Source of the DNA: an uncultured archaeon
Lineage (GTDB): Archaea > Asgardarchaeota > Lokiarchaeia > Sigyniarchaeales > SOKP01
Assembly (NCBI GenBank): GCA_964632315.1
Contig: CAZWEM010000048.1
Location: forward strand, 1-38,721
Length of the DNA: 38,721 bases
Direction: 5' to 3'
Shown here: piece by piece, positions 11,354 to 38,345 of the stretch
Numbering within the stretch: position 1 is the stretch's first letter
How the letters are laid out: the number at the start of each line of letters is the position of its first letter
Notes under the pieces: model-generated
Seen by the model: only the letters and a program-made list of their open reading frames with translations
What the model was told of the DNA's origin: nothing
Databases searched by the model: none
Made by a program: the position numbers and the translations under genes

Positions 11354-12409
11354 TTAATATAGGATCTCGGGCGAGATATCCTTCAGCGAGCGACAATTGG
11401 TCATCTTCATAGCTTTAACCAAGGTTTTCTGTAAATAATTCATGTGTATTTTTACTCCTTCAGGGCCCCCTCCTACAGCAGCTCTAATTAGATCTCTTCC
11501 AATTAACACTCCATTAGCTCCAAGAGCTAGCATTTTCAAAACATCATAACCCGTTCTGATACCACCATCAGCTAAAATAGGGATTTGTGTTCCTAGTTCT
11601 TTAACAATTGCAGGTAATACTTCTGCGGTTCCCGGTGTATGATCTAAGACTCGCCCACCATGATTAGAAATAACAATTGCTGATGCTCCTGCATCTTTGG
11701 CGGCTCTAGCATCTTCTAAGCACATTACTCCCTTGATGATAACTGGTAAAGATGTCGATTCAACAAGGTTCCTTATATCTTCAATTGTTTTTCGATAAAC
11801 TGGTCTATTATGCTTAGCCATTGCGTATGATCCGCATCCGTCTATATCGACTCCGACGGCAATGCAATTGGCATCCTCAGCTTTCTTAAAGAATTCAATG
11901 ATCTTCTCTTGATCCCTTGGCTTGACAATTTTAACACCAAGACCCCCAACCTCAGAAATAGCATTTATGCCATAAGAATTTTCTAAAGAATAATTAATTG
12001 AGTCTCCCCTCCATCCAATCGTACCAGCGGATTTACAGCCCATAACAATAGATCTGCAAAATTCAGCTTCGGAAATGACTTCCTCTCCTCCAAAGCTATG
12101 GACGCCTGCTGTACTAGCTCCCATTATCGGCATGGAAAGTTCTCTTCCAAAAAAATCATAGCTCGTATCGGGTTCAAAGTGATCACCAATGAGATGCATT
12201 TTTAATCGAATTTTATTTAGTGCTTCATAGTTATTATTAAAACTATATCCAGCCCCAGTTCCTCCAATTCCCAGTGGCCTTCCATAACTCTGCCCTTCAC
12301 ATAACTTGGTTGCTTCTCCATCACAATTCCGATAAACAGCACAAATTCCTTTTAACTTCTCTCTTGCTTTATTTCTAACATCTTCTAAGGTTAAGTCTTT
12401 TTCACTCAT
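11354..12409 (-). CDS. FMN-dependent alpha-hydroxy-acid dehydrogenase/oxidase family protein
   Basis: LPVIIKG, SNHGGR and DGGIRTGYDVLKMLALGA. Start moved from 12427 to ATG 12409 because GGAGG at 12421-12425 looks like its RBS. Confidence 0.88.
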   Translation of the reverse strand: MSEKDLTLEDVRNKAREKLKGICAVYRNCDGEATKLCEGQSYGRPLGIGGTGAGYSFNNNYEALNKIRLKMHLIGDHFEPDTSYDFFGRELSMPIMGASTAGVHSFGGEEVISEAEFCRSIVMGCKSAGTIGWRGDSINYSLENSYGINAISEVGGLGVKIVKPRDQEKIIEFFKKAEDANCIAVGVDIDGCGSYAMAKHNRPVYRKTIEDIRNLVESTSLPVIIKGVMCLEDARAAKDAGASAIVISNHGGRVLDHTPGTAEVLPAIVKELGTQIPILADGGIRTGYDVLKMLALGANGVLIGRDLIRAAVGGGPEGVKIHMNYLQKTLVKAMKMTNCRSLKDISPEILY

Positions 12410-12416: not shown

Positions 12417-13823
12417 TTAACCTCCACTCGTTATCGTTCTTTTAGGATCTAATATTTCGTCTAAATTTTCTTCAAATTCTAAACCCATTTCTAATATTAC
12501 TTGTTTAACGTTTTTTCCTTCCTTGTAAGCCTTTTGTGCAATTTCAGAAGCTTTATCATATCCGATATAAGGGTTTAGATTGGTAGCTATCATTAGTAAA
12601 TTGTCTAAATCACTTTTAATTTTACTTTCATTTACTTCTAAACCAATCAAACATTTATCAATAAAGGAATCGATACCTCTGCAAATCAAGGTAAGTGATT
12701 CCAATAAATTATGAATCATTATGGGTTTGCAGATATTCAAATCCAAAATGCTTCCCATCATTTCTGAATTCGAGATTGATACACACATTCCCATAACATA
12801 CAAGCATACTTGAATTAATGCTTCGGATTGTGTTGGGTTAATTTTACCGGGCATTATAGACGATCCGGGCTCATTTGCAGGCAATTTTAATTCAGAAAGT
12901 CCTGCTCTTGGACCACTCCCCATCCATCGTATATCATTTGCCATTTTGACAAGAGATAACGCTAAAAGGTTAATTGTACTACTAAGTTTAACGATGGTAT
13001 TATGAGAGGCTATACCTTCCGCTAGCACTTCTTTAGACCTTAATGAAAATCCAGTTACATCAGATAATTTTTTTATGACTAAAGCTTGAAAGTCTTTAGT
13101 AGTATTGATTCCAGTTCCTAAAACAGTACCTCCAAGAGGTATGGCGCTTAATTCTCCCAAATCAGAATTTAAACGATTTTTAGTAATTATGATCTGTTGT
13201 TTATATACTTTAAATTCAAGTGAGAGAGGAATCGGAACTGCATCTTGTAAGTGTGTTCTTCCAACTTTTAAAACATTTTTAAACTCTACTATTTTTTGAT
13301 CTAAAGCTTTTACCAACTTATCTAAGGTTGGATATAGGTCTTCTTTCATCGAATGCAATGCTGAAATGTGCATGGTAGTTGGGATTACATCATTTGATGA
13401 TTGAGACATGTTTACATCGTCATTAGGATGAACAGGTGATTTTTTCCCTTTTTCAAAGCCAAGGATCTCGTTTGCCCTGTTCGCTAACACTTCATTCATA
13501 TTCATGTTCATTTGAGTTCCTGAGCCAGTTTGGAATACATCAATTGGAAATTGATCAAAATGTCGTTGTTCATTTAGAATTTCATCAATAGCTTGTAGTA
13601 TCGCTTTAAATTTCTCTTCATCCAAGGATCCTAAATCTTTATTAGCTAAGAGGGCAGCCTTTTTTACTTCAGCTAAAGATTTTAAAAAATTATTAGAAAA
13701 TCTTTTAGTGCTAATTTGAAAGTTTTCTATGGCTCTCTGAGTATTTACTCCCCAATACGCATTATTAGGTACCTTAATTTCTCCTAAAACGTCTTTTTCT
13801 ATTCGATATTCATCATCATTCAT
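12417..13823 (-). CDS. fumC: Class II fumarate hydratase
   Basis: TGSGTQMNMN, HPNDDVNMSQSSND, GRTHLQDA and signature GSSIMPGKINP. Start reassigned to ATG 13823 (MNDDEYRIEKD), since the ORF-track extension overlaps sdhB. Position after sdhAB favours fumarase over aspartase. Confidence 0.87.
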   Translation of the reverse strand: MNDDEYRIEKDVLGEIKVPNNAYWGVNTQRAIENFQISTKRFSNNFLKSLAEVKKAALLANKDLGSLDEEKFKAILQAIDEILNEQRHFDQFPIDVFQTGSGTQMNMNMNEVLANRANEILGFEKGKKSPVHPNDDVNMSQSSNDVIPTTMHISALHSMKEDLYPTLDKLVKALDQKIVEFKNVLKVGRTHLQDAVPIPLSLEFKVYKQQIIITKNRLNSDLGELSAIPLGGTVLGTGINTTKDFQALVIKKLSDVTGFSLRSKEVLAEGIASHNTIVKLSSTINLLALSLVKMANDIRWMGSGPRAGLSELKLPANEPGSSIMPGKINPTQSEALIQVCLYVMGMCVSISNSEMMGSILDLNICKPIMIHNLLESLTLICRGIDSFIDKCLIGLEVNESKIKSDLDNLLMIATNLNPYIGYDKASEIAQKAYKEGKNVKQVILEMGLEFEENLDEILDPKRTITSGG

Positions 13824-14598
13824 GTTTACTCCAATCTTTGCGTAATTCTTGATTAATTGCCGTTCCGGGCATGACATTTTTAGGGCAAACTTGATTACAA
13901 ATAAAGTATCTCTCGCATGCAGGCACCCCATCTTCTTTCATCACTCGAGAAACAATTGAATTTTGTTTTTCATGCTGAATTCTTGAATCATAAACAAATC
14001 TACTTGCTTTAGCTAATTGAGCAGGTCCAAGATAATTTGGATTTTTATTACTTACGGGACAAGCCCAACAGAGACCGCATAAAATGCAATATACGTATCT
14101 TTCAATGCGTTCCATTTGTTCAGGAGATTGTTTAGATTCCGGTTGTTTATAATTCCATTCCCTCGTAAAAAAGGGCTCGATTTCTCGAAAATGATTCCAG
14201 AACTTTTCTAAATCAACGACTAAATCTTTTATGACTCTCATATTAGGTGCTGGTTCAATTAAAATTTCGTGTTCTCTATCCCATGCTGGAACGTCTCCAT
14301 AAATAAAATCAATATTCTTGCTCCTTATGAATTTTTCGATGGGTTGAATAATTTCATTTACTGAGGAAATTTGAGTTTTACAAGCTAACATCGGCACCTT
14401 ATTTATTGTCATCCCACAAGAGCCACAGACTGCTCCTCTACAAGCGTATCGAAATGCTAAAGTAGAATCTAAATGATCTTGGATGTAGAATAATGCATCT
14501 AATACATCCATTCCCTTTTCGATTGGAACTTCAAAGCGATCATAGCGTACACTTCCATCGCCTGGATTTCTATAAATTAAAAATTTTTGTTTTTCCAT
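13816..14598 (-). CDS. sdhB: Succinate dehydrogenase/fumarate reductase iron-sulfur subunit
   Basis: RYACRGAVCGSC (2Fe-2S), CILCGLCWACP (4Fe-4S), CERYFICNQVCP (3Fe-4S), VIKDLVVD and YLGPA. Confidence 0.92.
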   Translation of the reverse strand: MEKQKFLIYRNPGDGSVRYDRFEVPIEKGMDVLDALFYIQDHLDSTLAFRYACRGAVCGSCGMTINKVPMLACKTQISSVNEIIQPIEKFIRSKNIDFIYGDVPAWDREHEILIEPAPNMRVIKDLVVDLEKFWNHFREIEPFFTREWNYKQPESKQSPEQMERIERYVYCILCGLCWACPVSNKNPNYLGPAQLAKASRFVYDSRIQHEKQNSIVSRVMKEDGVPACERYFICNQVCPKNVMPGTAINQELRKDWSKHE

Positions 14599-16313
14599 TA
14601 GTATTCACGCTCCTTTACTTCAAATATACCTAAAATTACTGGCTTTGTTTTTAATTCTAAATCACCATTTTTTCCTCTTGAGACAATAGAATGAACAAGA
14701 AAATTTTCATCATTACGTGTATCAAAGTCTCGTCTAAAATGAGCTCCTCTACTCTCCTTTCTCCATAATGCTGCATAAGTAGTCACTTCTGCAATATCAA
14801 GCATCGATCTTAACTCAAGCGTACGTGTTAAGCCATAATTGAACTTTCTATCCGATGTATCTACATGTACTTCTTTAAAATCTTTTTGTAATTGTCTTAA
14901 TGTGTCTAGTGCTACTTGCATGTCTTTCTCATTTCTGAATACTCCAACGTTACTATTCATGATAGAACCCATCTCATCTCTAATCTCTGCGGGTTTCTTT
15001 CCTTCATTATTTTGCCATCTAGAAAATAATTCCTCAACATTGTTAAGGACTTGTTCTTCAGCTCCTTTGAGCATATTTGTGGAGAAACTTTTCGGTAATC
15101 CTCTTTCTTTCAACTTTTTACCTATTAATCTCCCAAACACAGCAGTCTCAAGCAAAGAATTACCTCCTAACCTATTTGCTCCATGAACAGAAAGACATGA
15201 ACATTCACCCAAAACCCAGAGCCCATTTAAATCAGTCTCACCAACATCTCCCTTATATTTTGTTGCAATCCCTCCCATACTATAATGCTGACCAGGTTGG
15301 ATGGGTATGGGTTCTTCGATGGGATCAATTCCAGCAAAATGCATGCTAATTTCTCGGATCCCGGGTAATTTTTTATTGATTGTATCTGCTCCTAGGTGTG
15401 TCAGGTCTAAATTAACATACTCATCTTCAAAAGCATTCCCTTCTAAAACCTCGGTATCTATTGCTCTAGCTACAATATCTCGAGGAGCTAATTCCATTGC
15501 TTCAGGAGCATACTTGTTCATGAATCTTTCATGTTTATTATTATATAACAATCCCCCTTCACCTCGCGCACCCTCAGTTATTAAAATATTTGAGCCATAT
15601 AATGTAGTAGGATGAAATTGAACAAATTCACAATCCTCCATTGGCACTCCTGCGCGAAAAGCAGCCCCTACTCCGTCTCCAGTATTAATTACTGAGTTTG
15701 TAGAACGCTTGTAGATTCTACCAAATCCTCCTGTAGCAAGTATAACAGATGGAGCTCGAAAGATTACCAATTCCCCACTTGTGATATCTAATGAGATTAA
15801 TCCTGTAACGTTATTTTCAATTTTAATTAGGTCAATCAAAAAATATTCATCGAAAAACTTTACATCAAATCGAACACACTGCTGATATAACGTGTGTAAG
15901 AGTGCGTGTCCCGTCCTATCTCCTGCAAAACAAGTCCTTGGAAATCCTGCACCTCCAAAAGGACGTTGATTTATTAATCCATTCTCCAATCTCGAAAAAG
16001 GTGTTCCCATACTTTCAAACTCTAATACTGTTTTGGGGGCTTCCTCACACATCAACATGGCAATGTTTTGATCTGCAACAAAGTCGGCTCCCTTCACGGT
16101 GTCATATGCATGAACTTTTGGTGAGTCATCCTTTCCCTCTTCTAAATTACCTAATGCTGCATTTATCCCTCCTTGCGCATTAATAGAATGACTCCTTACA
16201 GGATAGACCTTACTTATTATTGCCGTGTTATATTTATCTGATAACTCTAAACCTATTCTCAGACCGCTTAAACCAGCCCCAACTATTACTACATCAAATT
16301 CTTCTAACCTCAT
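14598..16313 (-). CDS. sdhA: Succinate dehydrogenase/fumarate reductase flavoprotein subunit
   Basis: GAGLSG, covalent-FAD His in RSHSINAQGG, QFHPT, LITEGARGEGG, HYSMGG, HGANRLGGNSL and ESRGAH. TAATG coupling to sdhB. Confidence 0.95.
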   Translation of the reverse strand: MRLEEFDVVIVGAGLSGLRIGLELSDKYNTAIISKVYPVRSHSINAQGGINAALGNLEEGKDDSPKVHAYDTVKGADFVADQNIAMLMCEEAPKTVLEFESMGTPFSRLENGLINQRPFGGAGFPRTCFAGDRTGHALLHTLYQQCVRFDVKFFDEYFLIDLIKIENNVTGLISLDITSGELVIFRAPSVILATGGFGRIYKRSTNSVINTGDGVGAAFRAGVPMEDCEFVQFHPTTLYGSNILITEGARGEGGLLYNNKHERFMNKYAPEAMELAPRDIVARAIDTEVLEGNAFEDEYVNLDLTHLGADTINKKLPGIREISMHFAGIDPIEEPIPIQPGQHYSMGGIATKYKGDVGETDLNGLWVLGECSCLSVHGANRLGGNSLLETAVFGRLIGKKLKERGLPKSFSTNMLKGAEEQVLNNVEELFSRWQNNEGKKPAEIRDEMGSIMNSNVGVFRNEKDMQVALDTLRQLQKDFKEVHVDTSDRKFNYGLTRTLELRSMLDIAEVTTYAALWRKESRGAHFRRDFDTRNDENFLVHSIVSRGKNGDLELKTKPVILGIFEVKEREY

Positions 16314-16368: not shown

Positions 16369-17241
16369 TTATTTGAACGATTCGATTAGACTTCTAAATT
16401 TATCCATATCTAAGTCGCGTAAATATAAAGGTCGCTTATCCTTATCGTAGATTTGAATACTTTCTTCATAAATTCGGCGATTTGGATTTAAATATAATAC
16501 ACCTAAAGGTAATTTTTTAGATTGTACAGCTATTTTTAATGCATTAGCTTGATCGTAAGGGTCATAATCATCTTCTACATAATAACTATTTTCTTTATAC
16601 CACTGAAAAGTATTTACCCGATTGAAAGTCACGCAAGGGCATAAAAGATCTATGAGAGCATAACCCTTATGTTTTATTGCTTTTTTTAAGATTTCTTTTG
16701 TTTCATCAATATCACCAGTGAAGGCCCGTGCTACGAAGGATGCTTTAAGAGAAATTGCTACTGCAACTGGATTAAATGGTTCAATAATTACTCCATTAAT
16801 TTGAACAGGTGTCTTAAAACCAAGCTGACTTGTGGGAGATGCTTGACCTTTTGTCAATCCATAAACTTGATTATTATGAGCAATATTTACTATATTCGGA
16901 TTATATCGAATAGTGTGAATGAAATGATTGCCCCCTTCACTATAAGTACATCCATCTCCACTCATCGCAATAACGGTCAACTCGGGGTTAGCTGCTTTCA
17001 TACCTAAAGCATTTGACAAATATCTTCCATGTAGTCCATTGAAACTTTGAGAGTTAATAAAGTGAGGAAACTTACCTGCTTGTCCAATGCCAGAGACTAA
17101 TACAACATCTTGTTGTTTCAATTTTAACTCGGATAATGCTTCTTTCATAATCCTTAAGGCATTATAATTACCGCAACCTGGACACCAGTGAATTTCGATG
17201 TCCAAATCCCATATTTCTTTTTTTTCTTCTTTATCTGACAA
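16369..17241 (-). CDS. korB: 2-oxoacid:ferredoxin oxidoreductase beta subunit (TPP-binding)
   Basis: WCPGCG, SGIG, LHGR, GDG...[11 protein letters not shown] and PCVTFN. TTG start behind GAGGTGA. 2-oxoglutarate specificity is inferred from context only. Confidence 0.88.
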
Positions 17242-17242
17242 A

Positions 17243-18973
17243 TTAGATCACCTCAATAGCCTTTTTGATTTGATCCATTATCTCTTCAACTGAGAATGTA
17301 TAACCAGAATAGTTTAAAATCAGATGATCTACCTTACGATGCGTTTCAAGCTCAACTAAATTAGCAAATTGCCCCGTAGGATTACTCTCGATAACAATTA
17401 GTTTTTCTGCTTTTGAAATATAGTCATTCGTAATTTTGTTCAATGGATAAACTTGTTTATAATGTAGAAATCCGATATCAGATCGATTTAAATTATCAAG
17501 AGCTTCTTTAATCAAATAAAAGCTACTACCCCAGCTAATTACAAGATATTTAATCGCATCAGAACCGATATATTCGGGGGGAATTGCATTTTCTTTAATT
17601 AAAGAAAGCTTTTTTAATCTTTTTTCAACCGTTCGCATTCTAAGATCAGGATCTTCGGTGATATCTCCACTTTCAGTATGGGTATGAGAGTCAGCATCTA
17701 CTAAACCGTCCCCATATCCTGGAATACCACGGGGTGATATAATATCCTCAGTGAATTTATATCTTTCATAATCTTGCTCAGTTTTTATGATAAAATTCTT
17801 TCTTTCTAAATGTTCATAATCAATTTTACTTACATTGTAATAAGAATCAACAAGATATTGGTCTGTTAGAATAAACACGGGTACTTGATATTCTTGGGTT
17901 AAGTTAAATGCATTTTGAGTCAACAAAAATGATTCCTCAATAGAGTTAGGGGCTAAAATTATTCTTGGAAAATACCCTGCTCCAGCGTGCAAGACCAAGT
18001 TCAAGTCCTCTTGAGCAGTTCGAGTTGGCATTCCAGTGGCTGGTCCTGGTCGCTGTCCTACAATAATTACAAGGGGTAATTCACTCATTCCAGTTAAACT
18101 CACTCCTTCCCCCATTAATGAAAAGCCGCCACCCGAAGTAGATACTAAAGCACGAGCACCAGCATAAGAAGCGCCTAGTGCTTTATTTATTACGCTAATC
18201 TCGTCTTCAGATTGATCAACTATTATTGAAAATTCAGGACCGTGTTGTGCGAGAAATGTACCTATTCCTGTGCTTGGGGCCATTGGATAAAAAGTAACGT
18301 AGTTGACTCCACCTGCTATGGCACCTAATGCGATCCCTTGAGTGCCGTCGATAATGTAATCATCAATTACATCATCATTTTTTTGTATTGATTTTACTTT
18401 TGAGAGCTTCCCTTCATCGATTAACTCCATAGCTTTATCAAATCCTTTATCTGCTGCTTTTATATTATTTTGAATAATTTCCGATCCTTTCGACTTAAAA
18501 TTCTCCTCAAGTAAATCATGAAGAATACTTTTGTCTGCCCCCAAAATATTGCAAATCAATCCCAGAACTATTATATTCGCATAAACTTTACCACCGACAT
18601 CTTTAGACATTTCTAAAAAAGGTACCTCTATTTTTATTCCGCTAGGTTCTGAATCAGTGTCAAGAAACTCCTTTTCTCCAAGTATTATGCTTTCTGTAGT
18701 TAATTTGCCTTTTAGATGAGGAATAGCTGCATCATTTAACGGAAATAAAAAGTCAATTCTTTCGCTATATGCTCTAACTTTAACTGATGAGACTCTAATT
18801 GAGGTTGAGTTTACGCCACCCCTAACCCTAGACATGTATTCTCTCGTAGCAAATACGTTGAAACCCGATTTTTTAAGTGTCTTAGTAAGCAATGCTTCTA
18901 CAGTCTTAATACCTTGACCAGCAGCACCACATAACACCAAAGATATATCCTCTTTTTCGTTTAATTTTTCCAT
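17243..18973 (-). CDS. korA: 2-oxoacid:ferredoxin oxidoreductase alpha subunit (gamma-alpha fusion)
   Basis: [34 protein letters not shown] and [11 protein letters not shown]. Confidence 0.9.
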
Positions 18974-19191: not shown

Positions 19192-20364
19192 TTAAAGTAA
19201 CTCGTGTTCGATTCGAAAGTAGTAATTATGGAATAATGAAGAAATAAGATATGATTTAATCAACCTAAAATCCTGTTTATACCTTAAAAGATCATAAATG
19301 TAATAAGTTCGCTTAAACAACCAAGCTACAAATCCACTGAAAACAAACTTATTGAACAATTGGGCTACTCCATAATTTTTACCTAAAGATATGAACATGA
19401 ACCTAAGCGGCTTTAGACGCAACGGTTTTAATTTTTTCTCTTTTACCTTCCTAAAGAGCATTTTGGCTAAATAATCTGCTTGAATCTTAGCGATCTGAGC
19501 TAGCATTGGTGCATTTCCACCGATATATGGAAAATTGGAGGCATCACCAATGGAATATACATCTTCTAAACCTTCTACTTGACAGAAATGATTAACTTCA
19601 TAGGCTCTGTCGAATTGAAGATCAGAATCAATCATTATTGGTCTTGATCCAATGCAGATTATGATAAACTCAAAAGGATACTCCTTATCTCCAACGAAAA
19701 TAGATTTATTTTCAATCTTGGTCACTCTTTGATTGTAGAAAACATTGATATCCAGCTTTTTCATCTTTTTATTGATTATCGCATGAAACTCAGGAATACC
19801 TGGAAACAATTTTTTTTCTGCTACGAATATATCGATAATAATCTCGTTTTTCAACGTTTTTGCTAAAGAAGCAATCTCCGTAGCAAGCTCTATTCCTACT
19901 GCACCTCCTCCAATAATCGAAATAACAGGACGATGTCTACCAAAAGCGATCTTTAAGTGTTCATTAATCCTAATTGCATCAAATATATTTTTCATAGTGG
20001 GATAATTTTCTGAACCTTTAATAACCTTTAAAGCAGCGGCCCCAGGTGCGATAATTAAGTAGTCATATTTATAAAACTGAGAATTTTTTAGTTCAACTTC
20101 CTTTTTCTTGAAATAAATTTTTTTTACTGTTGATCGAATAAACAATGCTCGTTTTAACTCTTTTCTAATGTCAAAGAGAGGTAGCTCCTTCGGAATTTGT
20201 CCTACACATGCTTCATGTAATAGAGTATTATAAAGAAAATGATGGGATGGATTTATTAATAATACATCAAAATTTTCGAACGTTTCAATCTTTTTTGCTA
20301 ACCTAAATCCAGCAAATCCCGCTCCAATGATGATTACATTTAATCTTTTCGTTGAAACTTTCAT
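19192..20364 (-). CDS. ndh: FAD-dependent oxidoreductase, type II NADH dehydrogenase-like
   Basis: IIGAGFAG, YDYLIIAPG, IIGGGAVGIELA, YSIGD, AQIA and a C-terminal amphipathic segment SGFVAWLFKRTYY. Confidence 0.72.
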   Translation of the reverse strand: MKVSTKRLNVIIIGAGFAGFRLAKKIETFENFDVLLINPSHHFLYNTLLHEACVGQIPKELPLFDIRKELKRALFIRSTVKKIYFKKKEVELKNSQFYKYDYLIIAPGAAALKVIKGSENYPTMKNIFDAIRINEHLKIAFGRHRPVISIIGGGAVGIELATEIASLAKTLKNEIIIDIFVAEKKLFPGIPEFHAIINKKMKKLDINVFYNQRVTKIENKSIFVGDKEYPFEFIIICIGSRPIMIDSDLQFDRAYEVNHFCQVEGLEDVYSIGDASNFPYIGGNAPMLAQIAKIQADYLAKMLFRKVKEKKLKPLRLKPLRFMFISLGKNYGVAQLFNKFVFSGFVAWLFKRTYYIYDLLRYKQDFRLIKSYLISSLFHNYYFRIEHELL

Positions 20365-20541: not shown

Positions 20542-21999
20542 TTATCCTAAAAATTTTCTTCTGCTTGCAGCTAAAAGGATCTTTTCTGTCAAGCCTTCTG
20601 GTTGTTCTTTTTTTATTGAATGAATTATATCATCAGTATATGTTTTATGGGTCTCGTCAAGTTCATAATCAATATTGAAATCTTTTAATTTTAATTGAAA
20701 ATCGAATTTCAAGAAATCTTGATTAGGATTGTAGTATTTTAATGCTTCTTTCAGATCTTCTTCAAAATTAACATATTGAGTTAGTATAAAATCATAATCT
20801 TTTTGAGTCAAACAATTAAGTCCTAAAAGTGAGGGAGGAATTCCTATCGAATACATCGCAGCAGTGAATCCAATTGCTCTGGGAAGACAAAACTCACCTA
20901 CATCACGACAATAGCCAAAAAGTCCTATATGTAAGTTCCTTCTTCTTCTTTTTGGAGAATAAGGCGCTATTCTATTAACCATTGGGGCTAAACTTAATAC
21001 CTGTTTAGAATATGCATCTGAAAATCTTTCTATTATTTCTAAACATTTATCTTCCTCCATTAAATGCGGTCTCTTTACAGGAATCTCCTTTAACCTTTTC
21101 ATCGCATTAATTACCTCATCGGGAGGATTATCATACTTAAATGCTGATTGAATCGTGTAAGTATAAACACTAGGATATTCCTTTGTAACGCTATCAACCG
21201 TTTCTGGTTTAAAATTTCCGCGAAATACGGGAGACCCTACCCCAATGATGGGATAAAATTCAACACTAATTTTCTCAGACAAATTCTGAATACGCTGATG
21301 TGCCACTTTGTTGATAAGTACTGCCGAAAGTAGCCCATAATTAAGGGCGGGATCGGAACGCGCATAAAACACTCTTTGATATTCTACCTTTTTATTACTT
21401 AAGTAAGCATCAAGAATTTTATGCGAATCTAACATGTGTTCTTTATCTTCAAATAAAGGAATAACATTAATGCTTTTGGGAGCGAATTTTCCCACCCATT
21501 CTGCGATTGTTATATCATTTTCTATTGGTCGGTAATCTTGTTTTCCTATGACAAATTTATGATAATAGGAATATATTCTATCAAGTGCTAATTGAGATTG
21601 AGCCATTGGTAAAATAACCTCAAAAATCGGGGGAATTTCATCTTTAAAGACAGTATGAGATGCATCAAAAGAACGAGGGATGCTTTCTAAAGTCTCTATC
21701 AATATTTTGGCTTCTGGTATCTCAAATTCAGGATTTGGAAGCCTTAAAGTAAGGAAAACATCTTCACCAAGTCTTTTCTTATTAAAAAAATTTTTATATC
21801 GAGTTAGTAATTTTTTAACCACAAAAGCGTCACCTTCCTTACCCTCATAATCCCACATCTGCTCATCACAACCCAGATGAGAAAATGCATAAAATGCCTC
21901 CTCTACTTCATCTTCATTATCCATATCTGGAGAATTAGCGAAGAAGGGGATGTTAACATTATCAGGATGTTGGGTACTCATGCATTTAGGAATGGTCAT
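20542..21999 (-). CDS. ppcA: Archaeal-type phosphoenolpyruvate carboxylase
   Basis: IPKCMSTQHPDN, MWDYEGK, VIPLFED, ARSDPALNYG, TIQSAFKYD and LPRAIGF. ATG 21999 preferred because the ORF-track GTG at 22008 lies within a GGTGA RBS. Confidence 0.93.
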   Translation of the reverse strand: MTIPKCMSTQHPDNVNIPFFANSPDMDNEDEVEEAFYAFSHLGCDEQMWDYEGKEGDAFVVKKLLTRYKNFFNKKRLGEDVFLTLRLPNPEFEIPEAKILIETLESIPRSFDASHTVFKDEIPPIFEVILPMAQSQLALDRIYSYYHKFVIGKQDYRPIENDITIAEWVGKFAPKSINVIPLFEDKEHMLDSHKILDAYLSNKKVEYQRVFYARSDPALNYGLLSAVLINKVAHQRIQNLSEKISVEFYPIIGVGSPVFRGNFKPETVDSVTKEYPSVYTYTIQSAFKYDNPPDEVINAMKRLKEIPVKRPHLMEEDKCLEIIERFSDAYSKQVLSLAPMVNRIAPYSPKRRRRNLHIGLFGYCRDVGEFCLPRAIGFTAAMYSIGIPPSLLGLNCLTQKDYDFILTQYVNFEEDLKEALKYYNPNQDFLKFDFQLKLKDFNIDYELDETHKTYTDDIIHSIKKEQPEGLTEKILLAASRRKFLG

Positions 22000-22060
22000 A
22001 TCATTCACCAGTTTAATTTAGATTTTAACAGTTAATCCTTTATGAAAGTCATCTGAAATA

Positions 22061-24013
22061 TTATAATTCACATATACGATCCTCCATTTTTGGAGTTAGA
22101 TTTATAAGACTCCCAGCCAAAATTGCCTTTATTTGACGTTTACTTAAATCATGTTTAGTTTCATAAGATTGATTCTTGGTTTCGTTAAATACCTTGATAG
22201 TACTACTTTTTTGAATTACATTTTTAATATTTTCAATTTTAATTGTATCTCCTTGAACAATTTTATTCCAATCATCTTTATTTTTAAAAGTAAGAGGAAG
22301 TATACCAAAATTAATTAAATTCTGCCAATGAATTCGAGCGAAACTCCGAGCTACAACTAACCTTAAGCCTATATATCGAGGAGCTAGGCTTGCATGTTCT
22401 CTACTGGATCCTTGACCGTAGTTTTCTCCAGCTATTATTGCAAACCCTTTCTCTTGGAATTTTATGGCTCTATCATAAAAACCATCTTCAACAACCTTAA
22501 ATACGAATTTGCTAATTTCAGGAACGTTACTTCTAAATGGTAATACTTTTGCTCCTGCCGGCATAATCTCATCAGTAGAGATATTATCGCCGACTTTTAA
22601 AACGACGTTAAGACTTAAGGACTCTGGTAATTTTGTAAATTTCGGCAAAGATTTGATGTTTGGACCTTTTCTCAAATCTATTGCCAAGCATTTTCTGGGA
22701 GGAGGTACTAACATAGAAGTGTTGATTATTAATTGTTCCGGCTCTTTAAATATTGGATAATCCATATCTAAAGTACGAGGATCGGTAATGACTCCTGTAA
22801 TCGCTGAGGCTGTGGCTGTTTCAGGGCTGCATAAATACACCATATCGCCTTCAGTTCCAGACCTATCCGGAAAGTTTCTGGGAACCGTTCGTAAGCTTTT
22901 TCCATTAGTAGGAGGAGCCTGTCCCATTCCAATGCAGCCATTACATCCTGCTTCGTGAATTCGGGCGCCTCCTCGAACCAGATAAGTGAAAAGCCCCATC
23001 TCTACGAGATTTTCTAAAATTTGACGTGTAGTAGGATTTACATCATAGGATACCTTTTCTTGAACCTTCCTTTCCTTTAACATCAAAGCACATATTCCAA
23101 AGTCCCTCAAACCAGGATTTGCTGATGAACCTACATAAGATTGAAGTATTTCTTCACCAGCGACATCAGCTACAGGTTTCACTTTACCTGGACTGCTTGG
23201 TAATGCTATTAAAGGTTCAACTTCAGACAAGTCAATTTCCTCATGATAATCATAATCACAATTTTCATCAGCAGAGAGTTGAACATAATCATTAACACGG
23301 CCTTGTGTCGCAAGAAATCTTTCGACTTCTCCATCTGCCGGAAAGACACTACTGGTAGCGCCAAGTTCCGTGCCCATATTACATATTACGTGGCGATCCA
23401 TCGCAGTAAGAGTCTTAACACCAGGGCCATAATATTCAATGATTCTACCAACTCCTCCTTTTACATCATGTCTCTTCAACATTTCTAAAATAACATCTTT
23501 AGCACTAACCCAATCATTCAACTTACCAGTTAATTTAACGCCCCAAACTGCTGGAGATTGAATAAATAAGGGTTTTCCCGCAATTGCTAAGGCAACTTCT
23601 AAGCCTCCCGCTCCAATTGCGAGCATTCCGAGTGAACCCGCTGCGGGAGTATGACTGTCGGAACCAAGTAGGCTTTTTCCGGGAATTCCAAATCTTTCCA
23701 TGTGTATGGGGTGACTTACTCCATTCCCTGGTCGACTAAACCATAATCCGAAGCGCTGGGCTCCTGTATAGAGAAAGAGATGGTCATCAGAATTTTTGAA
23801 ATCTGCTCTAATTAAATTGTGATCAACATATTGAACAGATACCTCAGTTTTGGCTCTATCTAGTTCCATGGCTTCTAATTCAAGCATAACCATCGTTCCC
23901 GTAGCATCTTGTGTTAATGTTTGGTCGATTCTGAGCCCAATTTCTTTTCCAATTTCCATATTTCCCTCAATTAAATGAGATTTAATCAGTTTTTCGGCAA
24001 TATTCAAACCCAC
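22061..24013 (-). CDS. acn: Aconitate hydratase, copy 2 (GSSAN variant)
   Basis: IDQTLTQDATGTM, GSDSHT, CNGCIG and GENYGQGSSREHA. GTG start behind GAGGTGA, 6 nt after the citrate synthase stop. Confidence 0.88.
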   Translation of the reverse strand: MGLNIAEKLIKSHLIEGNMEIGKEIGLRIDQTLTQDATGTMVMLELEAMELDRAKTEVSVQYVDHNLIRADFKNSDDHLFLYTGAQRFGLWFSRPGNGVSHPIHMERFGIPGKSLLGSDSHTPAAGSLGMLAIGAGGLEVALAIAGKPLFIQSPAVWGVKLTGKLNDWVSAKDVILEMLKRHDVKGGVGRIIEYYGPGVKTLTAMDRHVICNMGTELGATSSVFPADGEVERFLATQGRVNDYVQLSADENCDYDYHEEIDLSEVEPLIALPSSPGKVKPVADVAGEEILQSYVGSSANPGLRDFGICALMLKERKVQEKVSYDVNPTTRQILENLVEMGLFTYLVRGGARIHEAGCNGCIGMGQAPPTNGKSLRTVPRNFPDRSGTEGDMVYLCSPETATASAITGVITDPRTLDMDYPIFKEPEQLIINTSMLVPPPRKCLAIDLRKGPNIKSLPKFTKLPESLSLNVVLKVGDNISTDEIMPAGAKVLPFRSNVPEISKFVFKVVEDGFYDRAIKFQEKGFAIIAGENYGQGSSREHASLAPRYIGLRLVVARSFARIHWQNLINFGILPLTFKNKDDWNKIVQGDTIKIENIKNVIQKSSTIKVFNETKNQSYETKHDLSKRQIKAILAGSLINLTPKMEDRICEL

Positions 24014-24019
24014 TTGAGA

Positions 24020-25318
24020 TCACCTCTGAGAGATCGGCACGTATTCTTTGTTAATATCGCCCACATAGCGAAGTCGAGGACGGATTAATTTATTATCAGA
24101 GAGCTGTTCTATCGCATGAGCAACCCAACCAGCACTTCTTGATGCAGCGAATAAAGGCGTAAATAATTTTGTTGGAATTCCCAATGCGTGAAGTAATCCT
24201 GCAGAATAAAGATCAACATTAGGATAAATATTTTTTTCTTCAATCATAAAATCCTTCAGGGTTTCAGTCATTTCATATATATTATCGATTTGCTCATGAT
24301 ATTTCCTATGTTCCATATCAGGAATCTTTTCAAAAGTTTCTCCACTATCAATTTTACCCCAAAATTTCTTAGAAAGCTCTCTTAAAATTTTAGCACGTGG
24401 ATCCCAAACTTTATAGACTCTATGTCCAAAGCCCATTATCAAGTCTTTTTTTTCAAGTTTATTTTTCGCCCAAGGAATCACATTATCCTTCCTTTTAATG
24501 TCATCTAACATTGCCCTAATTACACGTTCATTAGCTCCACCATGTAAAGGACCCCTAAGAGTGCCTATTGCACTTGTAATACCACTATAAATATCAGAAA
24601 GTGTCGAGACTGTGACTCGACAAGAGAATGTAGATGAGTTTATGGAGTGATCGGCATGACAAATGAGAACCTTATCAAAAGCAGAGGTGAATTCCTCATC
24701 TGGTTCATTTCCAGTCATCATGTAATAATAATTTCCAGCATGACATAGGTTTTTTGAGGGCTCAACAAGAGGTAGATTTGATTGAATGCGATGAGAAAAA
24801 GCCAAAATTGTTGGAATTTTTGCGATAATCCTTATTCCTTTTCTGATATTAGCTTCTTCTGAAAAGTCGTAATCATCAGAATCATATAATGATAGTGCTG
24901 AAATTGCAGTACGGAGTAATTCGATTCTAGTGGTTTCACGCGGAAAACTTTTTAAAATTGTTAATATATTGTCGGGGATTTGTCTTTCATTGATTAACTC
25001 ATTCTCTAAATCTCCAAGCTGTTTTTTATTTGGCAACTCTCCATAAATAAGAAGATAGATTACTTCCTCGAATGAGGAATTTTCTACGAGAGTCTTGAGA
25101 GAATACCCCCTATAATATAATTTTCCATGAATTCCATCAATATATGTAATTTTACTCTCATCGACATAGATTCCTACTAAACCTTTATATGTCTTCGAGC
25201 GATCGATATCGCATAACTTTGGTTCTGTTTCTTCTTCATAATCTTCACACGCATATGAGGTAGTTGTCTCACATGGTTCCGATTTCTGATTCACTTTATC
25301 CTCAATCATTAGACTCAA
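24020..25318 (-). CDS. gltA: Citrate synthase (Si-type; 2-methylcitrate synthase not excluded)
   Basis: GKLYYRGY, HADH, GPLHGGANE, MGFGHRVYK-x-x-DPR, YPNVD and LIRPR. Confidence 0.92.
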   Translation of the reverse strand: MSLMIEDKVNQKSEPCETTTSYACEDYEEETEPKLCDIDRSKTYKGLVGIYVDESKITYIDGIHGKLYYRGYSLKTLVENSSFEEVIYLLIYGELPNKKQLGDLENELINERQIPDNILTILKSFPRETTRIELLRTAISALSLYDSDDYDFSEEANIRKGIRIIAKIPTILAFSHRIQSNLPLVEPSKNLCHAGNYYYMMTGNEPDEEFTSAFDKVLICHADHSINSSTFSCRVTVSTLSDIYSGITSAIGTLRGPLHGGANERVIRAMLDDIKRKDNVIPWAKNKLEKKDLIMGFGHRVYKVWDPRAKILRELSKKFWGKIDSGETFEKIPDMEHRKYHEQIDNIYEMTETLKDFMIEEKNIYPNVDLYSAGLLHALGIPTKLFTPLFAASRSAGWVAHAIEQLSDNKLIRPRLRYVGDINKEYVPISQR

Positions 25319-29266: not shown

Positions 29267-30391
29267 ATAAGATTACTTGAATATGAAAGTAAAAAAATAT
29301 TTGCTGATTATACAATTCCATTAGTACCTAATATTGTAATAGAGAAGGACGACGATCTAAAAAAAAAAGTTTCTGGATTTAAATTTCCTGCAATAATTAA
29401 ATCTCAAATTGCTATTGGTAGTAGGAAGAAAGCAGGTTTAATAAAAACAGCCAATTCTCAAAATGAAGCGGTAAAATTATGTAAAGAATTCTTCAATCGT
29501 AAAGTAGCTGGTTATGGAGTTAAGGCGATTTTGATCGAAGAACTTGTCGACATTAAACATGAATATTACGTTTCAGTGGCATTAGATGTATCCGAAAGAA
29601 AGTTCTACCTAATTGCAAGCATAAAAGGTGGGATAGATATTGAAGAAGTTTCCAAAAAAAGCCCTGAAGATATTTTTAAAATTAGTTTTTCCTATTCACA
29701 AGGTTTAACAGATGAAATTGCGCAAGAAATGGCTCATAAATTAGGTTTTAATGATAAATTAGAAGTAAGCACAGTCGAAATACTTAAAAAATTATGGAAG
29801 GTTACGAAAGATCTCGAGGCTCAACTAGTCGAAATAAACCCGCTAATACTTACACCATCAGGATTAATTGCAGTCGACGCTAAAATGATATTAGATGATG
29901 ATTCAGCTTTTAGACAGCCAATTGTTCGTGATTTAAAAATAAAAAAGGAAACCGAATTGGAAAAAATTGCGAACGAAGCAGGATTTTCCTTCGTCGAACT
30001 AGATGGAGACATTGGTATTCTTGCAAACGGAGCAGGTTTAACAATGGCATTATTAGACGTACTTTCTAGTATGGGATTAAAGCCTGCTAATTTTTTAGAT
30101 GTTGGTGGGGGTGCAAGTAAAGAGCGCGTGTATAAAGCTTTAGAGTTACTATTTAAATTAAAACCAAATGGTATTTTAATAAATATATTTGGGGGGATAA
30201 CGAGATGTGATGTCGTAGCTAAAGCAATTATCCAAGCATTAGAAGATTTCAAAAATGCCCCACCAATCATAATAAGATTAACAGGGACGAATGATAAAGA
30301 AGGTATTGAGCTTCTAAAAAATGATGGTATAAATGCATACCAAGAAGTCATGGAAGCTGTAAATAAGTTGAAAGAGGTGTTAAATGAATAA
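29267..30391 (+). CDS. sucC: Succinyl-CoA synthetase beta subunit (non-canonical ATA start)
   Basis: The frame is open 88 codons upstream of the ORF-track start: (I/M)RLLEYESKKIFADYTIP...IKSQIAIGSRKKAG. AGGAGG RBS at 29253-29258. Also shows EINPL, NGAGLTMA, PANFLDVGGG and NIFGGITRCD. Confidence 0.88.
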   Translation: MRLLEYESKKIFADYTIPLVPNIVIEKDDDLKKKVSGFKFPAIIKSQIAIGSRKKAGLIKTANSQNEAVKLCKEFFNRKVAGYGVKAILIEELVDIKHEYYVSVALDVSERKFYLIASIKGGIDIEEVSKKSPEDIFKISFSYSQGLTDEIAQEMAHKLGFNDKLEVSTVEILKKLWKVTKDLEAQLVEINPLILTPSGLIAVDAKMILDDDSAFRQPIVRDLKIKKETELEKIANEAGFSFVELDGDIGILANGAGLTMALLDVLSSMGLKPANFLDVGGGASKERVYKALELLFKLKPNGILINIFGGITRCDVVAKAIIQALEDFKNAPPIIIRLTGTNDKEGIELLKNDGINAYQEVMEAVNKLKEVLNE

Positions 30392-31252
30392 ATGTATATT
30401 AATGAAAACTCCAAAGTGGTAGTCCAAGGAATTACTGGTAAGCAAGGAACGTTTCATACAAAATTAATGCTTGACTATGGCACTAAAATTGTTGCAGGTG
30501 TCACACCCGATAAGGGAGGGTTGGAAGTACATAAAGTGCCTGTGTTTAATACAATGAAAGAAGCTATTAAAGAAACAGACTGTGATACTAGTATTGTTTT
30601 TGTACCTGCAAAATTCACGTATGGAGCTGTCAAGGAAAGTATTTTAGCTGGAATAAATATGACTGTCATTATAACAGAGGATGTACCAGTTTTCGATATG
30701 TTGAGGTTATTTGAACTTTCTAGAAGGAAAAATACTCATCTAATTGGCCCTAATTGTCCTGGAATGATGATTCCAGATAAGATCAAACTTGGAATAATGC
30801 CAGCAGACTTGTGTCATTTTGGAAATGTGGCGATTATTTCAAAGAGTGGTACTTTATCTTACGAAATAACTAAAGCAATAGGAAATGCAGATATCGGAGT
30901 TTCAGCTTATATTGGGATTGGAGGTGATCCAGTCAGAGGAATTACTATGAAAGAAGCTACTCAATATTATGTTGAAGATGAACAAACAAAATTGATAGTT
31001 TTAATCGGAGAAATAGGAAGCGATGAAGAGGAGAAAACTGCGAAATACTTATCAGATCAATCTGATAAACCTGTCGTTGCTTATATTGCAGGAAAGAGTG
31101 CTCCTGAAGGCAAAAGAATGGGACATGCTGGAGCAATTATTTCAGGAGATGTTGGTACAGCTGAAGGAAAGATAAAGGCATTAAAGAATGTTGGAGCGCG
31201 AATAGCATTTACACCATGGGAAGTTCCAAAGTTGATTAAAGAAGTATTATAG
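30392..31252 (+). CDS. sucD: Succinyl-CoA synthetase alpha subunit
   Basis: VVQGITGKQGTFH, IGPNCPG, SKSGTLSYE, IGIGGD, GEIG and phospho-His motif RMGHAGAI. Confidence 0.93.
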   Translation: MYINENSKVVVQGITGKQGTFHTKLMLDYGTKIVAGVTPDKGGLEVHKVPVFNTMKEAIKETDCDTSIVFVPAKFTYGAVKESILAGINMTVIITEDVPVFDMLRLFELSRRKNTHLIGPNCPGMMIPDKIKLGIMPADLCHFGNVAIISKSGTLSYEITKAIGNADIGVSAYIGIGGDPVRGITMKEATQYYVEDEQTKLIVLIGEIGSDEEEKTAKYLSDQSDKPVVAYIAGKSAPEGKRMGHAGAIISGDVGTAEGKIKALKNVGARIAFTPWEVPKLIKEVL

Positions 31253-38287: not shown

Positions 38288-38345
38288 ATTTAATCTTCAA
38301 AATTTAAATATGAACAAAAATATAAAATGAAAAGAGGTAACAAAT

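What the first reader, a model, noticed from the sequence alone, without database searches (positions are those of the whole stretch)
11354..12409. FMN alpha-hydroxy-acid dehydrogenase in the malate dehydrogenase slot: candidate new L-malate dehydrogenase
Seen: it starts 7 nt after the fumC stop with its RBS inside the end of fumC, giving korAB-sdhAB-fumC-X, and no MDH or MQO occurs in the window. It keeps the catalytic Lys and SNHGGR, but by eye lacks the Arg-containing loop after the catalytic Asp (VDIDGCGSYAM). It also carries an N-terminal Cys cluster (C-AVYRN-C-DGEATKL-C). Established: this family oxidises L-2-hydroxy acids (lactate, glycolate, mandelate), and L-malate is an L-2-hydroxy acid. 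Inference: a non-orthologous, possibly Fe-S-linked malate/oxaloacetate oxidoreductase that closes the cycle.
Basis: inference. Interest (0 to 1): 0.78.

Follow-up and report, generated by a model that had tools for sequence, protein, structure and literature searches.

The report
Candidate flavin/iron-sulfur malate dehydrogenase
An Asgard archaeon keeps an unusual cysteine-rich flavin enzyme of the lactate/glycolate-oxidase family exactly where malate dehydrogenase should sit in its citric-acid-cycle genes, so it is probably an undescribed NAD-independent malate/oxaloacetate enzyme, though nobody has assayed it.

Summary
Gene X (11354-12409, minus strand, 351 aa) starts 7 nt after fumC in korAB-sdhAB-fumC-X. 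The window also encodes gltA, aconitases, IDH, sucCD, ACL and PEPC, so only the malate dehydrogenase step lacks a gene.

X belongs to Pfam FMN_dh. It keeps the catalytic Asp, Lys and SNHGGR, but lacks the catalytic Tyr (Val162) and the Arg loop. It has four conserved Cys, and sister-clade homologues carry a fused rubredoxin.

Support for malate:
- fumC-X adjacency holds in all 29 family loci that cover the upstream side.
- Other Asgard classes, a Methanobacterium, a Bathyarchaeon and a Myxococcales MAG place X beside gltA-acn, kor or sdhAB-fumC.
- All 18 such loci fall in one clade.
- Gene presence is nested: sdhA within X within fumC.

The genome's only Ldh_1 gene is an L-LDH (Gln102) and there is no Mqo. 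A near-closed relative (G170) has X and the cycle genes but no Ldh_1, Ldh_2 or Mqo.

Caveats:
- An Ldh_2-family dehydrogenase is near-universal in the family.
- X does not anticorrelate with Ldh_1.
- 12 of 30 clade loci lack cycle neighbours.
- There is no assay.

This scan reached the same reading earlier on other Asgard genomes. No paper describing it was found.

The parts
11354..12409 (-). Gene X: 351-aa divergent FMN_dh-family flavoprotein, the candidate malate:acceptor oxidoreductase
   Evidence: ORF and sequence. Pfam PF01070 at 218 bits, below every NCBIfam equivalog cut-off. AF2 pLDDT 80.7 and Foldseek TM 0.64-0.71 to hydroxy-acid oxidases.
12299..12343 (-). N-terminal Cys motif C23-x5-C29-D-G-x5-C37
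   Evidence: At least 90% conserved in 16 homologues. Aligns with the bacterial CxxCxxC(D/N)GxxC motif, with the second Cys replaced by Tyr26.
11831..11848 (-). D188-x-D-G-C192-G: catalytic Asp followed by the fourth conserved Cys
   Evidence: Asp188 aligns with HAO1 Asp160. Cys192 is present where the N-terminal motif has three Cys, and Ala where it has four. One homologue (L056) lost all four Cys together.
11732..11734 (-). Lys226, equivalent of the family's FMN-stabilising Lys (GOX Lys230)
   Evidence: Invariant in alignment A1 and aligned with the KG motif of the oxidases.
11651..11668 (-). S248-N-H250-G-G-R253 catalytic His/Arg motif
   Evidence: Invariant and aligned with SNHG(A/G)R of lactate and glycolate oxidases.
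12421..12425 (-). GGAGG Shine-Dalgarno-like site inside the end of fumC, 11 nt before the ATG of X
   Evidence: Read directly from the sequence.
12417..13826 (-). fumC, class II fumarase; its product L-malate is the proposed substrate of X
   Evidence: Lyase_1 plus FumaraseC_C. Best NCBIfam model is fumC_II at 555 bits. The motif SQSSND is fumarase-type rather than aspartase-type (from memory; sequence).
13816..16313 (-). sdhB and sdhA, succinate dehydrogenase/fumarate reductase subunits without anchor genes
   Evidence: Pfam and NCBIfam. 30 of the 32 family genomes with an sdhA orthologue also have X.
16369..18973 (-). korB and korA, 2-oxoacid:ferredoxin oxidoreductase
   Evidence: Pfam.
19192..20364 (-). 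Pyr_redox_2 flavoprotein in the same co-oriented block; a possible but untested electron-transfer partner
   Evidence: Pfam. Only weak NCBIfam hits, to NADH oxidase, CoA-disulfide reductase and the NADH:flavorubredoxin reductase NorW, all far below cut-off.
20542..25318 (-). Archaeal PEP carboxylase, an aconitase-family protein and citrate synthase (a user of oxaloacetate)
   Evidence: Pfam and tblastn.
29273..31252 (+). sucC and sucD, succinyl-CoA synthetase
   Evidence: tblastn at 62-76% identity to the Heimdall sucCD.
35159..38720 (+). ATP-citrate lyase subunits and the start of an isocitrate dehydrogenase-family gene
   Evidence: Pfam; Iso_dh hit at 38472-38702.

Best explanation
X is an NAD-independent (S)-malate:acceptor oxidoreductase, or in reverse an oxaloacetate reductase. 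It supplies the malate dehydrogenase step of the citric-acid-cycle genes in many Asgard archaea and a few other anaerobes.

Proposed mechanism (inferred):
1. L-malate made by FumC binds in an FMN TIM barrel. Arg253, and probably Tyr42, hold the C1 carboxylate.
2. His250, backed by Asp188, takes the hydroxyl proton while the C2 hydride goes to FMN. Lys226 stabilises the reduced flavin.
3. Electrons leave one at a time through an iron-sulfur centre held by Cys23, Cys29, Cys37 and Cys192.
4. They pass to a rubredoxin- or ferredoxin-type carrier, which is fused to the enzyme in the sister clade.
5. Oxaloacetate goes to citrate synthase.

Shown here: family membership, conserved catalytic and Cys residues, the fusions, gene order and phyletic pattern. 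Inferred: the substrate, the metal centre, the acceptor and the direction.
For: **This genome**
- X is 7 nt downstream of fumC in korAB-sdhAB-fumC-X.
- The same 38.7-kb window also holds gltA, aconitase-family genes, PEPC, sucCD, ACL and IDH, so only the MDH step lacks a gene.
- The genome is 99.5% complete with no Mqo. Its sole Ldh_1 gene is an L-LDH: TIGR01771 scores 394 against a cut-off of 304, and Gln sits at position 102.
- The other FMN_dh-superfamily gene is a true type 2 IPP isomerase.

**Synteny in relatives**
- fumC-X is adjacent in 29 of 30 same-family loci; the 30th is cut at the contig end. gltA often follows.
- Two organisms show the pathway-ordered run korA-korB-sdhA-sdhB-fumC-X-gltA-acn.
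- Different arrangements occur elsewhere: X-gltA-acn, korAB-X, X-korAB-fumC-sdhAB, a Heimdall fumC-X among ACL, sucCD and acn, Methanobacterium sdhAB-fumC-(rubredoxin-X), Bathyarchaeia (rubredoxin-X)-sdhAB, and Myxococcales acn/gltA/X.
- All 18 cycle-linked loci lie in one clade of 30 rows (SH-aLRT 100). None of the 47 outside rows has a core cycle neighbour; two Nitrospinaceae rows lie next to ACL-like genes.

**Phyletic pattern in 135 family genomes**
- X is in 53, and 52 of those have fumC. Of the 32 genomes with an sdhA orthologue, 30 have X.
- 36 of the 53 X+ genomes have no Ldh_1 gene.
- G170 (10 contigs, 92% complete) has sdhA-fumC-X-gltA but no Ldh_1, Ldh_2 or Mqo.

**Chemistry**
- D188, K226, H250 and R253 are invariant.
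- The family acts on (S)-2-hydroxy acids, and L-malate is one (established knowledge).
- There are four conserved Cys with an apparent ligand swap, and rubredoxin fusions.
Against: - No biochemical data exist.
- An Ldh_2-family dehydrogenase is present in this genome (C64, 397 bits) and in 120 of 135 relatives, and could be the real MDH. From memory, its relatives include archaeal malate and sulfolactate dehydrogenases.
- X does not anticorrelate with Ldh_1: 17 of 53 X+ genomes have it, against 15 of 82 X- genomes.
- 41 family genomes have fumC without X, and no substitute gene sits in the slot.
- 12 of 30 loci in the X clade have unrelated neighbours.
- The family's catalytic Tyr is Val162, and the loop that carries the second substrate-binding Arg is missing. 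Substrate binding must therefore differ, and no residue could be assigned to malate's C4 carboxylate.
- The AF2 model has pLDDT below 50 around the Cys segment (residues 27-57), at 191-193 and at 252-256.
Confidence: 0.52

Rival explanations
1. X is an FMN/Fe-S L-lactate dehydrogenase, or a general short-chain L-2-hydroxy-acid dehydrogenase. It feeds pyruvate and electrons into central metabolism, and its place next to cycle genes reflects only a shared central-carbon regulon.
For: The closest solved and named relatives are lactate, glycolate and mandelate oxidases. Databases name relatives 'L-lactate oxidase' or 'alpha-hydroxy-acid oxidizing protein'. Many homologues outside the X clade have no cycle context.
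Against: The tight, often translationally coupled position after fumC and before gltA, in pathway order, is not expected for a lactate enzyme. X depends on fumC in the phyletic pattern (52 of 53). The genome already has an NAD-dependent L-LDH. No lactate permease or lactate-utilisation genes were seen next to X.
Confidence: 0.13
2. X is an L-2-hydroxyglutarate dehydrogenase. It makes 2-oxoglutarate for the adjacent 2-oxoglutarate:ferredoxin oxidoreductase, either as metabolite repair or as an amino-acid degradation route.
For: In several lineages X lies directly beside korAB (L048, L058, L062, L095). L-2-hydroxyglutarate is also an (S)-2-hydroxy dicarboxylate.
Against: In the largest group X is separated from korAB by sdhAB-fumC and abuts fumC and gltA. 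X tracks fumC (52 of 53). In f18 loci and in Myxococcales it neighbours gltA-acn without kor.
Confidence: 0.1
3. The malate step is carried out by the NAD(P)-dependent Ldh_2-family dehydrogenase. X is instead an electron-input or electron-transfer module for rubredoxin-type carriers, for example donating to anchor-less SdhAB or to oxygen-stress enzymes, with an unknown substrate.
For: Ldh_2 is near-universal in the family. Rubredoxin is fused to X homologues. One X-type homologue sits between a hybrid-cluster protein, a flavodiiron protein and desulfoferrodoxin. SdhAB has no anchor genes, and 30 of 32 sdhA+ genomes carry X.
Against: Ldh_2 occurs equally in genomes without fumC and was never seen within 8 kb of fumC or X. 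It scores far below every equivalog cut-off. G170 has the cycle genes and X but no Ldh_2. X keeps the complete His/Arg/Lys/Asp hydroxy-acid machinery.
Confidence: 0.15

Closest known systems
FMN-dependent (S)-2-hydroxy-acid oxidases/dehydrogenases (Pfam PF01070): glycolate oxidase/HAO1, L-lactate oxidase, mandelate/4-hydroxymandelate oxidase, LldD
   Same: TIM-barrel fold (Foldseek TM 0.64-0.71). The C-terminal half is about 40% identical. The catalytic Asp, Lys and SNHGGR His/Arg are conserved.
   Different: - 24-31% identity overall.
- The catalytic Tyr is replaced by Val162.
- Loop 4 with its Arg is deleted.
- There is an N-terminal insertion with three Cys, plus Cys192.
- X is below all NCBIfam equivalog cut-offs.
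- It occurs in strict anaerobes, inside citric-acid-cycle operons.
- No member of this family was found described as a malate enzyme.
Flavocytochrome b2 (yeast L-lactate:cytochrome c oxidoreductase)
   Same: The same FMN domain is coupled to a built-in one-electron carrier that passes electrons to an external acceptor instead of O2 or NAD. This is the 'works like' analogy for the Cys centre and for the rubredoxin-fused homologues.
   Different: The carrier here is a Cys-bound metal centre or rubredoxin, not a haem b5 domain. The proposed substrate is malate, not lactate. The host is prokaryotic and anaerobic.
Malate:quinone oxidoreductase (Mqo) and NAD(P)-malate dehydrogenases (Ldh_1; Ldh_2/MdhII type)
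   Same: The proposed reaction (malate to oxaloacetate and back) and the position in the pathway. Like Mqo, X would bypass the unfavourable NAD-linked oxidation.
   Different: X has no sequence relationship to any of them. Mqo is an FAD-dependent, membrane-associated enzyme, and Ldh_1 and Ldh_2 use NAD(P). Mqo and an Ldh_1-type MDH are absent from this genome, and Ldh_2 is present elsewhere.
Bacterial 'alpha-hydroxy-acid oxidizing protein' subfamily with N-terminal CxxCxxC(D/N)GxxC (Clostridia, Desulfovibrionales, Nitrospirota and others), uncharacterised
   Same: 30-46% identity, the same short architecture (about 340 aa), the same deleted loop 4 and a Cys-rich N-terminus.
   Different: It has four N-terminal Cys and DxDGAG instead of three Cys plus DxDGCG. 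No citric-acid-cycle neighbours were seen in 47 loci, apart from two Nitrospinaceae ATP-grasp fusions next to ACL-like genes. It forms separate clades.

Membership tests
FMN-dependent alpha-hydroxy-acid dehydrogenase/oxidase (PF01070) | Profile match above the gathering score and a TIM-barrel fold | tested here: met
   218 bits against a cut-off of 24.9. Foldseek probability 1.00 and TM 0.64-0.71 to mandelate, glycolate and lactate oxidases.
FMN-dependent alpha-hydroxy-acid dehydrogenase/oxidase (PF01070) | Catalytic His and substrate-carboxylate Arg (GOX His254/Arg257, motif SNHG(A/G)R) | tested here: met
   S248-N-H250-G-G-R253, invariant in 16 homologues.
FMN-dependent alpha-hydroxy-acid dehydrogenase/oxidase (PF01070) | Lys that stabilises reduced FMN (GOX Lys230) and the Asp paired with the His (GOX Asp157) | tested here: met
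   Lys226 and Asp188 are invariant. Asp188 aligns with HAO1 Asp160.
FMN-dependent alpha-hydroxy-acid dehydrogenase/oxidase (PF01070) | Active-site Tyr on strand 2 (GOX Tyr129, HAO1 Tyr132, Hmo Tyr128) | tested here: not met
   HAO1 Tyr132 aligns with Val162. The column holds V/C/W/A/S/I/F in the homologues.
FMN-dependent alpha-hydroxy-acid dehydrogenase/oxidase (PF01070) | Loop-4 Arg that binds the substrate carboxylate (GOX Arg164, HAO1 Arg167) | tested here: not met
   The loop is about 38 residues shorter and the equivalent position is Tyr195. A mostly basic residue 202 and an invariant Lys207 follow, but their roles are unknown.
FMN-dependent alpha-hydroxy-acid dehydrogenase/oxidase (PF01070) | N-terminal Tyr that binds the substrate carboxylate (GOX Tyr24, HAO1 Tyr26) | tested here: inconclusive
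   The aligned position is Leu46. An invariant Tyr42 lies four residues upstream, within an insertion that the AF2 model predicts poorly.
FMN-dependent alpha-hydroxy-acid dehydrogenase/oxidase (PF01070) | Binds FMN and oxidises an (S)-2-hydroxy acid | not testable with these tools
   Needs purified protein.
NAD(P)-malate/lactate dehydrogenase (Ldh_1, PF00056/PF02866) | Rossmann N-domain plus Ldh_1 C-domain, with Arg102 in an MDH | tested here: not met
   X has no such match. The genome's only Ldh_1 protein is on contig C6 and has Gln102.
Malate:quinone oxidoreductase (PF06039) | Match to the Mqo profile | tested here: not met
   No Mqo match in the genome or in G170 and G190.
Type 2 isopentenyl-diphosphate isomerase (TIGR02151) | Score above the equivalog cut-off | tested here: not met
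   X scores 57 against a cut-off of 281. The true Idi2 is on contig C4 and scores 418.
Iron-sulfur flavoprotein (FMN plus Cys-ligated cluster) | Four conserved Cys ligands placed to bind a cluster near the flavin | tested here: inconclusive
   Four Cys are conserved, with co-loss in L056 and a Cys2/Cys192 swap relative to the bacterial motif. The geometry could not be checked because the model has low pLDDT there and no coordinates were available. Metal content is not testable here.

The most novel reading that the evidence does not exclude
X founds a new enzyme class: an FMN plus iron-sulfur (S)-malate:rubredoxin/ferredoxin oxidoreductase. It replaces NAD-malate dehydrogenase in Asgard archaea and in some Methanobacteriota, Bathyarchaeia and Myxococcota. 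Using a higher-potential one-electron acceptor would make malate oxidation thermodynamically easy in anaerobes. Together with the anchor-less SdhAB, it may share a soluble carrier, for example in a malate/fumarate dismutation. The 'missing MDH' in Asgard metabolic reconstructions would then be an annotation gap.
Probability: 0.42. Interest if true: 0.85.

Novelty: new variant of a known kind. Interest (0 to 1): 0.72.

Why it matters
- **Thermodynamics.** Malate oxidation is the thermodynamically hardest step of the citric-acid cycle. Only NAD(P)-dependent MDHs and the quinone-linked Mqo are established solutions. A flavin/iron-sulfur enzyme using rubredoxin- or ferredoxin-type carriers would be a third solution.
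- **Asgard metabolism.** Asgard archaea are the closest known relatives of eukaryotes. At least one published reconstruction lists malate dehydrogenase among the cycle enzymes missing from an Asgard bin (PMC8072921). This would change how their central metabolism and redox balance are modelled, and with them the syntrophy models of eukaryogenesis.
- **Enzymology.** It would extend the well-studied glycolate/lactate-oxidase family to a metal-containing, oxygen-independent form. It would also give a function to a large set of proteins now annotated only as 'alpha-hydroxy-acid oxidizing protein'.

Tried and rejected
- **Type 2 IPP isomerase:** rejected. X scores 57 against a cut-off of 281, and the true Idi2 is elsewhere.
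- **The Ldh_1 gene as a canonical MDH:** rejected. It passes the L-LDH equivalog cut-off and has Gln102.
- **fumC as an aspartase:** considered, because it passes a loose 'aspartate ammonia-lyase' subfamily cut-off. The best model is fumC_II and the motif is SQSSND, so I keep fumarase.
- **Slot replacement in genomes with fumC but no X:** in 15 loci the neighbours are hydrolases, a nucleoside hydrolase, an aldehyde dehydrogenase, an amine oxidase or aconitase. No MDH-like gene was there.
- **Anticorrelation with Ldh_1:** not found.
- **Contexts of X-clade loci without cycle genes:** uninformative. They hold a methylase, an S58 peptidase, TPR and PAS kinase proteins, MFS transporters and cytochrome bd.
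- **Literature:** seven searches found no description of such an enzyme. The EC 1.1.3.15 survey tested no comparable protein on L-malate.
- **Structure:** the model's coordinates are not exposed, so Cys-Cys distances and the substrate pocket could not be measured.
- **Complex prediction:** not used, because no protein-protein binding is claimed.
Full report
**1. What is in the sequence**

The finding's coordinates hold a minus-strand gene: ATG at 12409, TAA at 11354-11356, 351 aa. The fumC stop is at 12417-12419. Seven bases separate it from the ATG of X, and GGAGG lies at 12421-12425.

Upstream on the same strand are sdhB, sdhA, korB and korA. Downstream is an M19 dipeptidase. I call the gene X.

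**2. The window is a citric-acid-cycle island**

Besides kor, sdh and fum, the window encodes the following:
- citrate synthase (24020-25318)
- two 640-650-aa aconitase-family proteins
- an archaeal PEP carboxylase
- sucCD (29273-31252)
- a two-subunit ATP-citrate lyase
- the start of an Iso_dh gene

The malate/oxaloacetate step is the only cycle step without a gene. X is the only unassigned oxidoreductase that is translationally coupled to a cycle gene.

**3. Family and residues**

X matches Pfam FMN_dh at 218 bits but is far below every NCBIfam equivalog cut-off (LldD, lactate oxidase, MftD, Idi2). The AF2 model (pLDDT 80.7) matches mandelate, glycolate and lactate oxidases at TM 0.64-0.71 and 24-31% identity.

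In an alignment of 16 homologues, Asp188, Lys226, His250 and Arg253 are invariant. A profile alignment to human HAO1 gives these equivalences:

| HAO1 | X |
|---|---|
| Asp160 | Asp188 |
| Tyr132 | Val162 |
| Gln130 | Lys160 |
| Trp110 | Ser137 |

The segment between the Asp and the next conserved block is about 20 residues in X against 58 in HAO1. The loop-4 Arg is therefore missing, with Tyr195 at its position. X keeps the core hydride-transfer machinery, but its substrate pocket must be built differently.

**4. Cysteines and fusions**

Cys23, Cys29 and Cys37 (C-x5-CDG-x5-C) and Cys192 (VDxDGCG) are conserved. One homologue (L056) has lost all four together.

Bacterial relatives of about 340 aa carry CxxCxxC(D/N)GxxC and DxDGAG instead. 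X has Tyr26 at the position of the second Cys of that motif, and Cys192 where they have Ala. This looks like a ligand swap, although a few X-type sequences have three Cys only.

A sister clade at 43-46% identity carries an N-terminal rubredoxin domain. It comprises two Asgard families, a Bathyarchaeon and a Methanobacterium. Two more representatives have a rubrerythrin-type rubredoxin.

Other relatives are fused to an L-amino-acid-ligase-type ATP-grasp domain or to a HAD hydrolase.

Together these features point to a metal centre and a one-electron acceptor rather than O2 or NAD. The model is unreliable at residues 27-57, 191-193 and 252-256, and no coordinates were available to test the geometry.

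**5. Is the context conserved?**

X-like genes occur in 108 of 400 genomes of the phylum. Database names of close hits are Loki-, Thor-, Heimdall- and Hermodarchaeota/Promethearchaeota.

- In the 30 best loci, all from the same family, fumC sits directly upstream in 29. The 30th is cut at the contig end. gltA often follows.
- Two organisms show korA-korB-sdhA-sdhB-fumC-X-gltA-acn, which is the order of the pathway.
- Other lineages use other arrangements: X-gltA-acn, korAB near X-gltA, korAB-X, X-korAB-fumC-sdhAB, and a Heimdall MAG with fumC-X amid ACL, sucCD and aconitase.
- Outside Asgard: Methanobacterium has sdhA-sdhB-fumC-(rubredoxin-X), Bathyarchaeia has (rubredoxin-X)-sdhA-sdhB with gltA, and a Myxococcales MAG has acn/gltA/X.

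In a quick maximum-likelihood tree of 77 homologues, all 18 cycle-linked loci fall in one clade of 30 (SH-aLRT 100). None of the 47 outside rows has a core cycle neighbour. Two Nitrospinaceae ATP-grasp fusions lie next to ACL-like genes. Twelve loci within the clade have unrelated neighbours.

**6. Phyletic pattern**

Counts are for the 135 genomes of the family.

| Gene | Genomes with it |
|---|---|
| X | 53 |
| fumC | 93 |
| sdhA orthologue | 32 |
| Ldh_1 | 32 |
| Ldh_2 | 120 |

- 52 of the 53 X+ genomes have fumC. The exception holds only a fragment of X.
- 30 of the 32 sdhA+ genomes have X. The sets are therefore nested, sdhA within X within fumC, as expected if X acts on the fumarase product.
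- X is not anticorrelated with Ldh_1 (17 of 53 against 15 of 82). Even so, 36 X+ genomes have no Ldh_1 gene at all.
- In 15 genomes with fumC but no X, no other dehydrogenase occupies the slot.

**7. Other malate dehydrogenase candidates**

This genome is 99.5% complete with 8.6% contamination.
- It has no Mqo.
- Its single Ldh_1 gene passes the L-LDH equivalog cut-off and reads AGRNQSPGETR, with Gln where MDHs have Arg.
- It has a malic enzyme.
- It has one Ldh_2-family gene on another contig, beside a PaaE-like reductase and a cation transporter. Its best model is sulfolactate dehydrogenase, at 267 bits against a cut-off of 500.

From memory, Ldh_2 proteins of methanogens have malate dehydrogenase activity, so this is a real rival. 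Three observations count against it:
- Ldh_2 is as common in genomes without fumC as in those with it.
- It was never seen near cycle genes.
- G170 (4.6 Mb in 10 contigs, 92% complete) has sdhA-fumC-X-gltA yet no Ldh_1, Ldh_2 or Mqo.

**8. Mechanism and direction**

From established values, the oxaloacetate/malate couple (about -170 mV) lies well above NAD+/NADH (-320 mV). A flavin passing electrons to a rubredoxin-type carrier near 0 mV would make malate oxidation favourable. With low-potential ferredoxin the same enzyme could run reductively, and the ACL genes nearby keep that option open. This is inference.

A Pyr_redox_2 protein in the same block is weakly similar to NADH:flavorubredoxin reductase and NADH oxidases. 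It is a possible partner, but this is untested.

**9. Novelty**

Seven full-text searches found no paper describing an FMN_dh-family malate dehydrogenase or this Cys-rich subfamily. One Asgard study lists malate dehydrogenase among the missing cycle enzymes (PMC8072921).

Earlier notes of this scan reached the same reading on other Asgard genomes. One claims cycle context 'in at least eight other phyla'. I could verify three phyla outside Asgard, plus ACL adjacency in Nitrospinota.

**10. Verdict**

Context evidence is strong and comes from several independent arrangements, but the substrate, metal centre and acceptor remain inferred, and an Ldh_2 rival is not excluded.
- I rate it a new variant of a known kind, with about even odds that malate is the physiological substrate.

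Noticed in passing
window 13816-16313: sdhA and sdhB have no membrane-anchor genes next to them. Orthologues occur in only 32 of 135 family genomes, and 30 of those also carry X. The two flavoproteins may share a soluble electron carrier.
   Followed up: partly
window 19192-20364: A 390-aa Pyr_redox_2 flavoprotein sits between korA and PEP carboxylase in the same co-oriented block. It has only weak similarity to NADH oxidase, CoA-disulfide reductase and the NADH:flavorubredoxin reductase NorW.
   Followed up: partly
L150 (Candidatus Lokiarchaeum ossiferum chromosome) 4840-7627: Only three C-terminal fragments of an X-like gene are present (query residues 306-350, 288-332 and 221-351), one of them with a stop. 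No cycle genes lie nearby. This looks like a decayed copy in a cultured Asgard archaeon.
   Followed up: partly
L115 5783-8035 and L116 5786-8044 (Nitrospinaceae); proteins P0132, P0158, P0155: Fusion proteins of about 750 aa join an L-amino-acid-ligase-type ATP-grasp domain to the Cys-rich FMN_dh domain. In L116 the fusion lies directly upstream of ATP-citrate-lyase-like genes. Their function is unknown.
   Followed up: partly
L176 5648-10090: An X-type homologue (P0126) sits between a hybrid-cluster protein, a flavodiiron-type protein and desulfoferrodoxin. That cluster type is known to use rubredoxin, which hints that some family members feed electrons to oxygen-stress enzymes.
   Followed up: no
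L044 6459-9071 (genome G072): In this Asgard lineage X lies divergently next to cytochrome bd oxidase subunit I and has no cycle genes nearby.
   Followed up: no
L001 1054-2931 (own genome, contig C6): The genome's L-lactate dehydrogenase (Gln102 type) is followed by a cofE-like F420-0:L-glutamate ligase gene.
   Followed up: no
window 12417-13931: The longest fumC ORF (504 aa) overlaps sdhB by 116 nt. Homologues align only from residue 36 or so onward, so the real start is probably the ATG at 13826. The protein also exceeds the cut-off of a loose 'aspartate ammonia-lyase' subfamily model, although fumC_II scores higher.
   Followed up: partly
family f1 genomes such as L082, L088, L089, L091: 41 relatives have fumC but no X. 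Of the 15 such fumC loci examined, only one (L090) has sdhAB nearby and none has korAB. Many lie near ATP-citrate lyase, sucCD or a 640-aa aconitase-family gene, which suggests two different cycle configurations within one family.
   Followed up: partly
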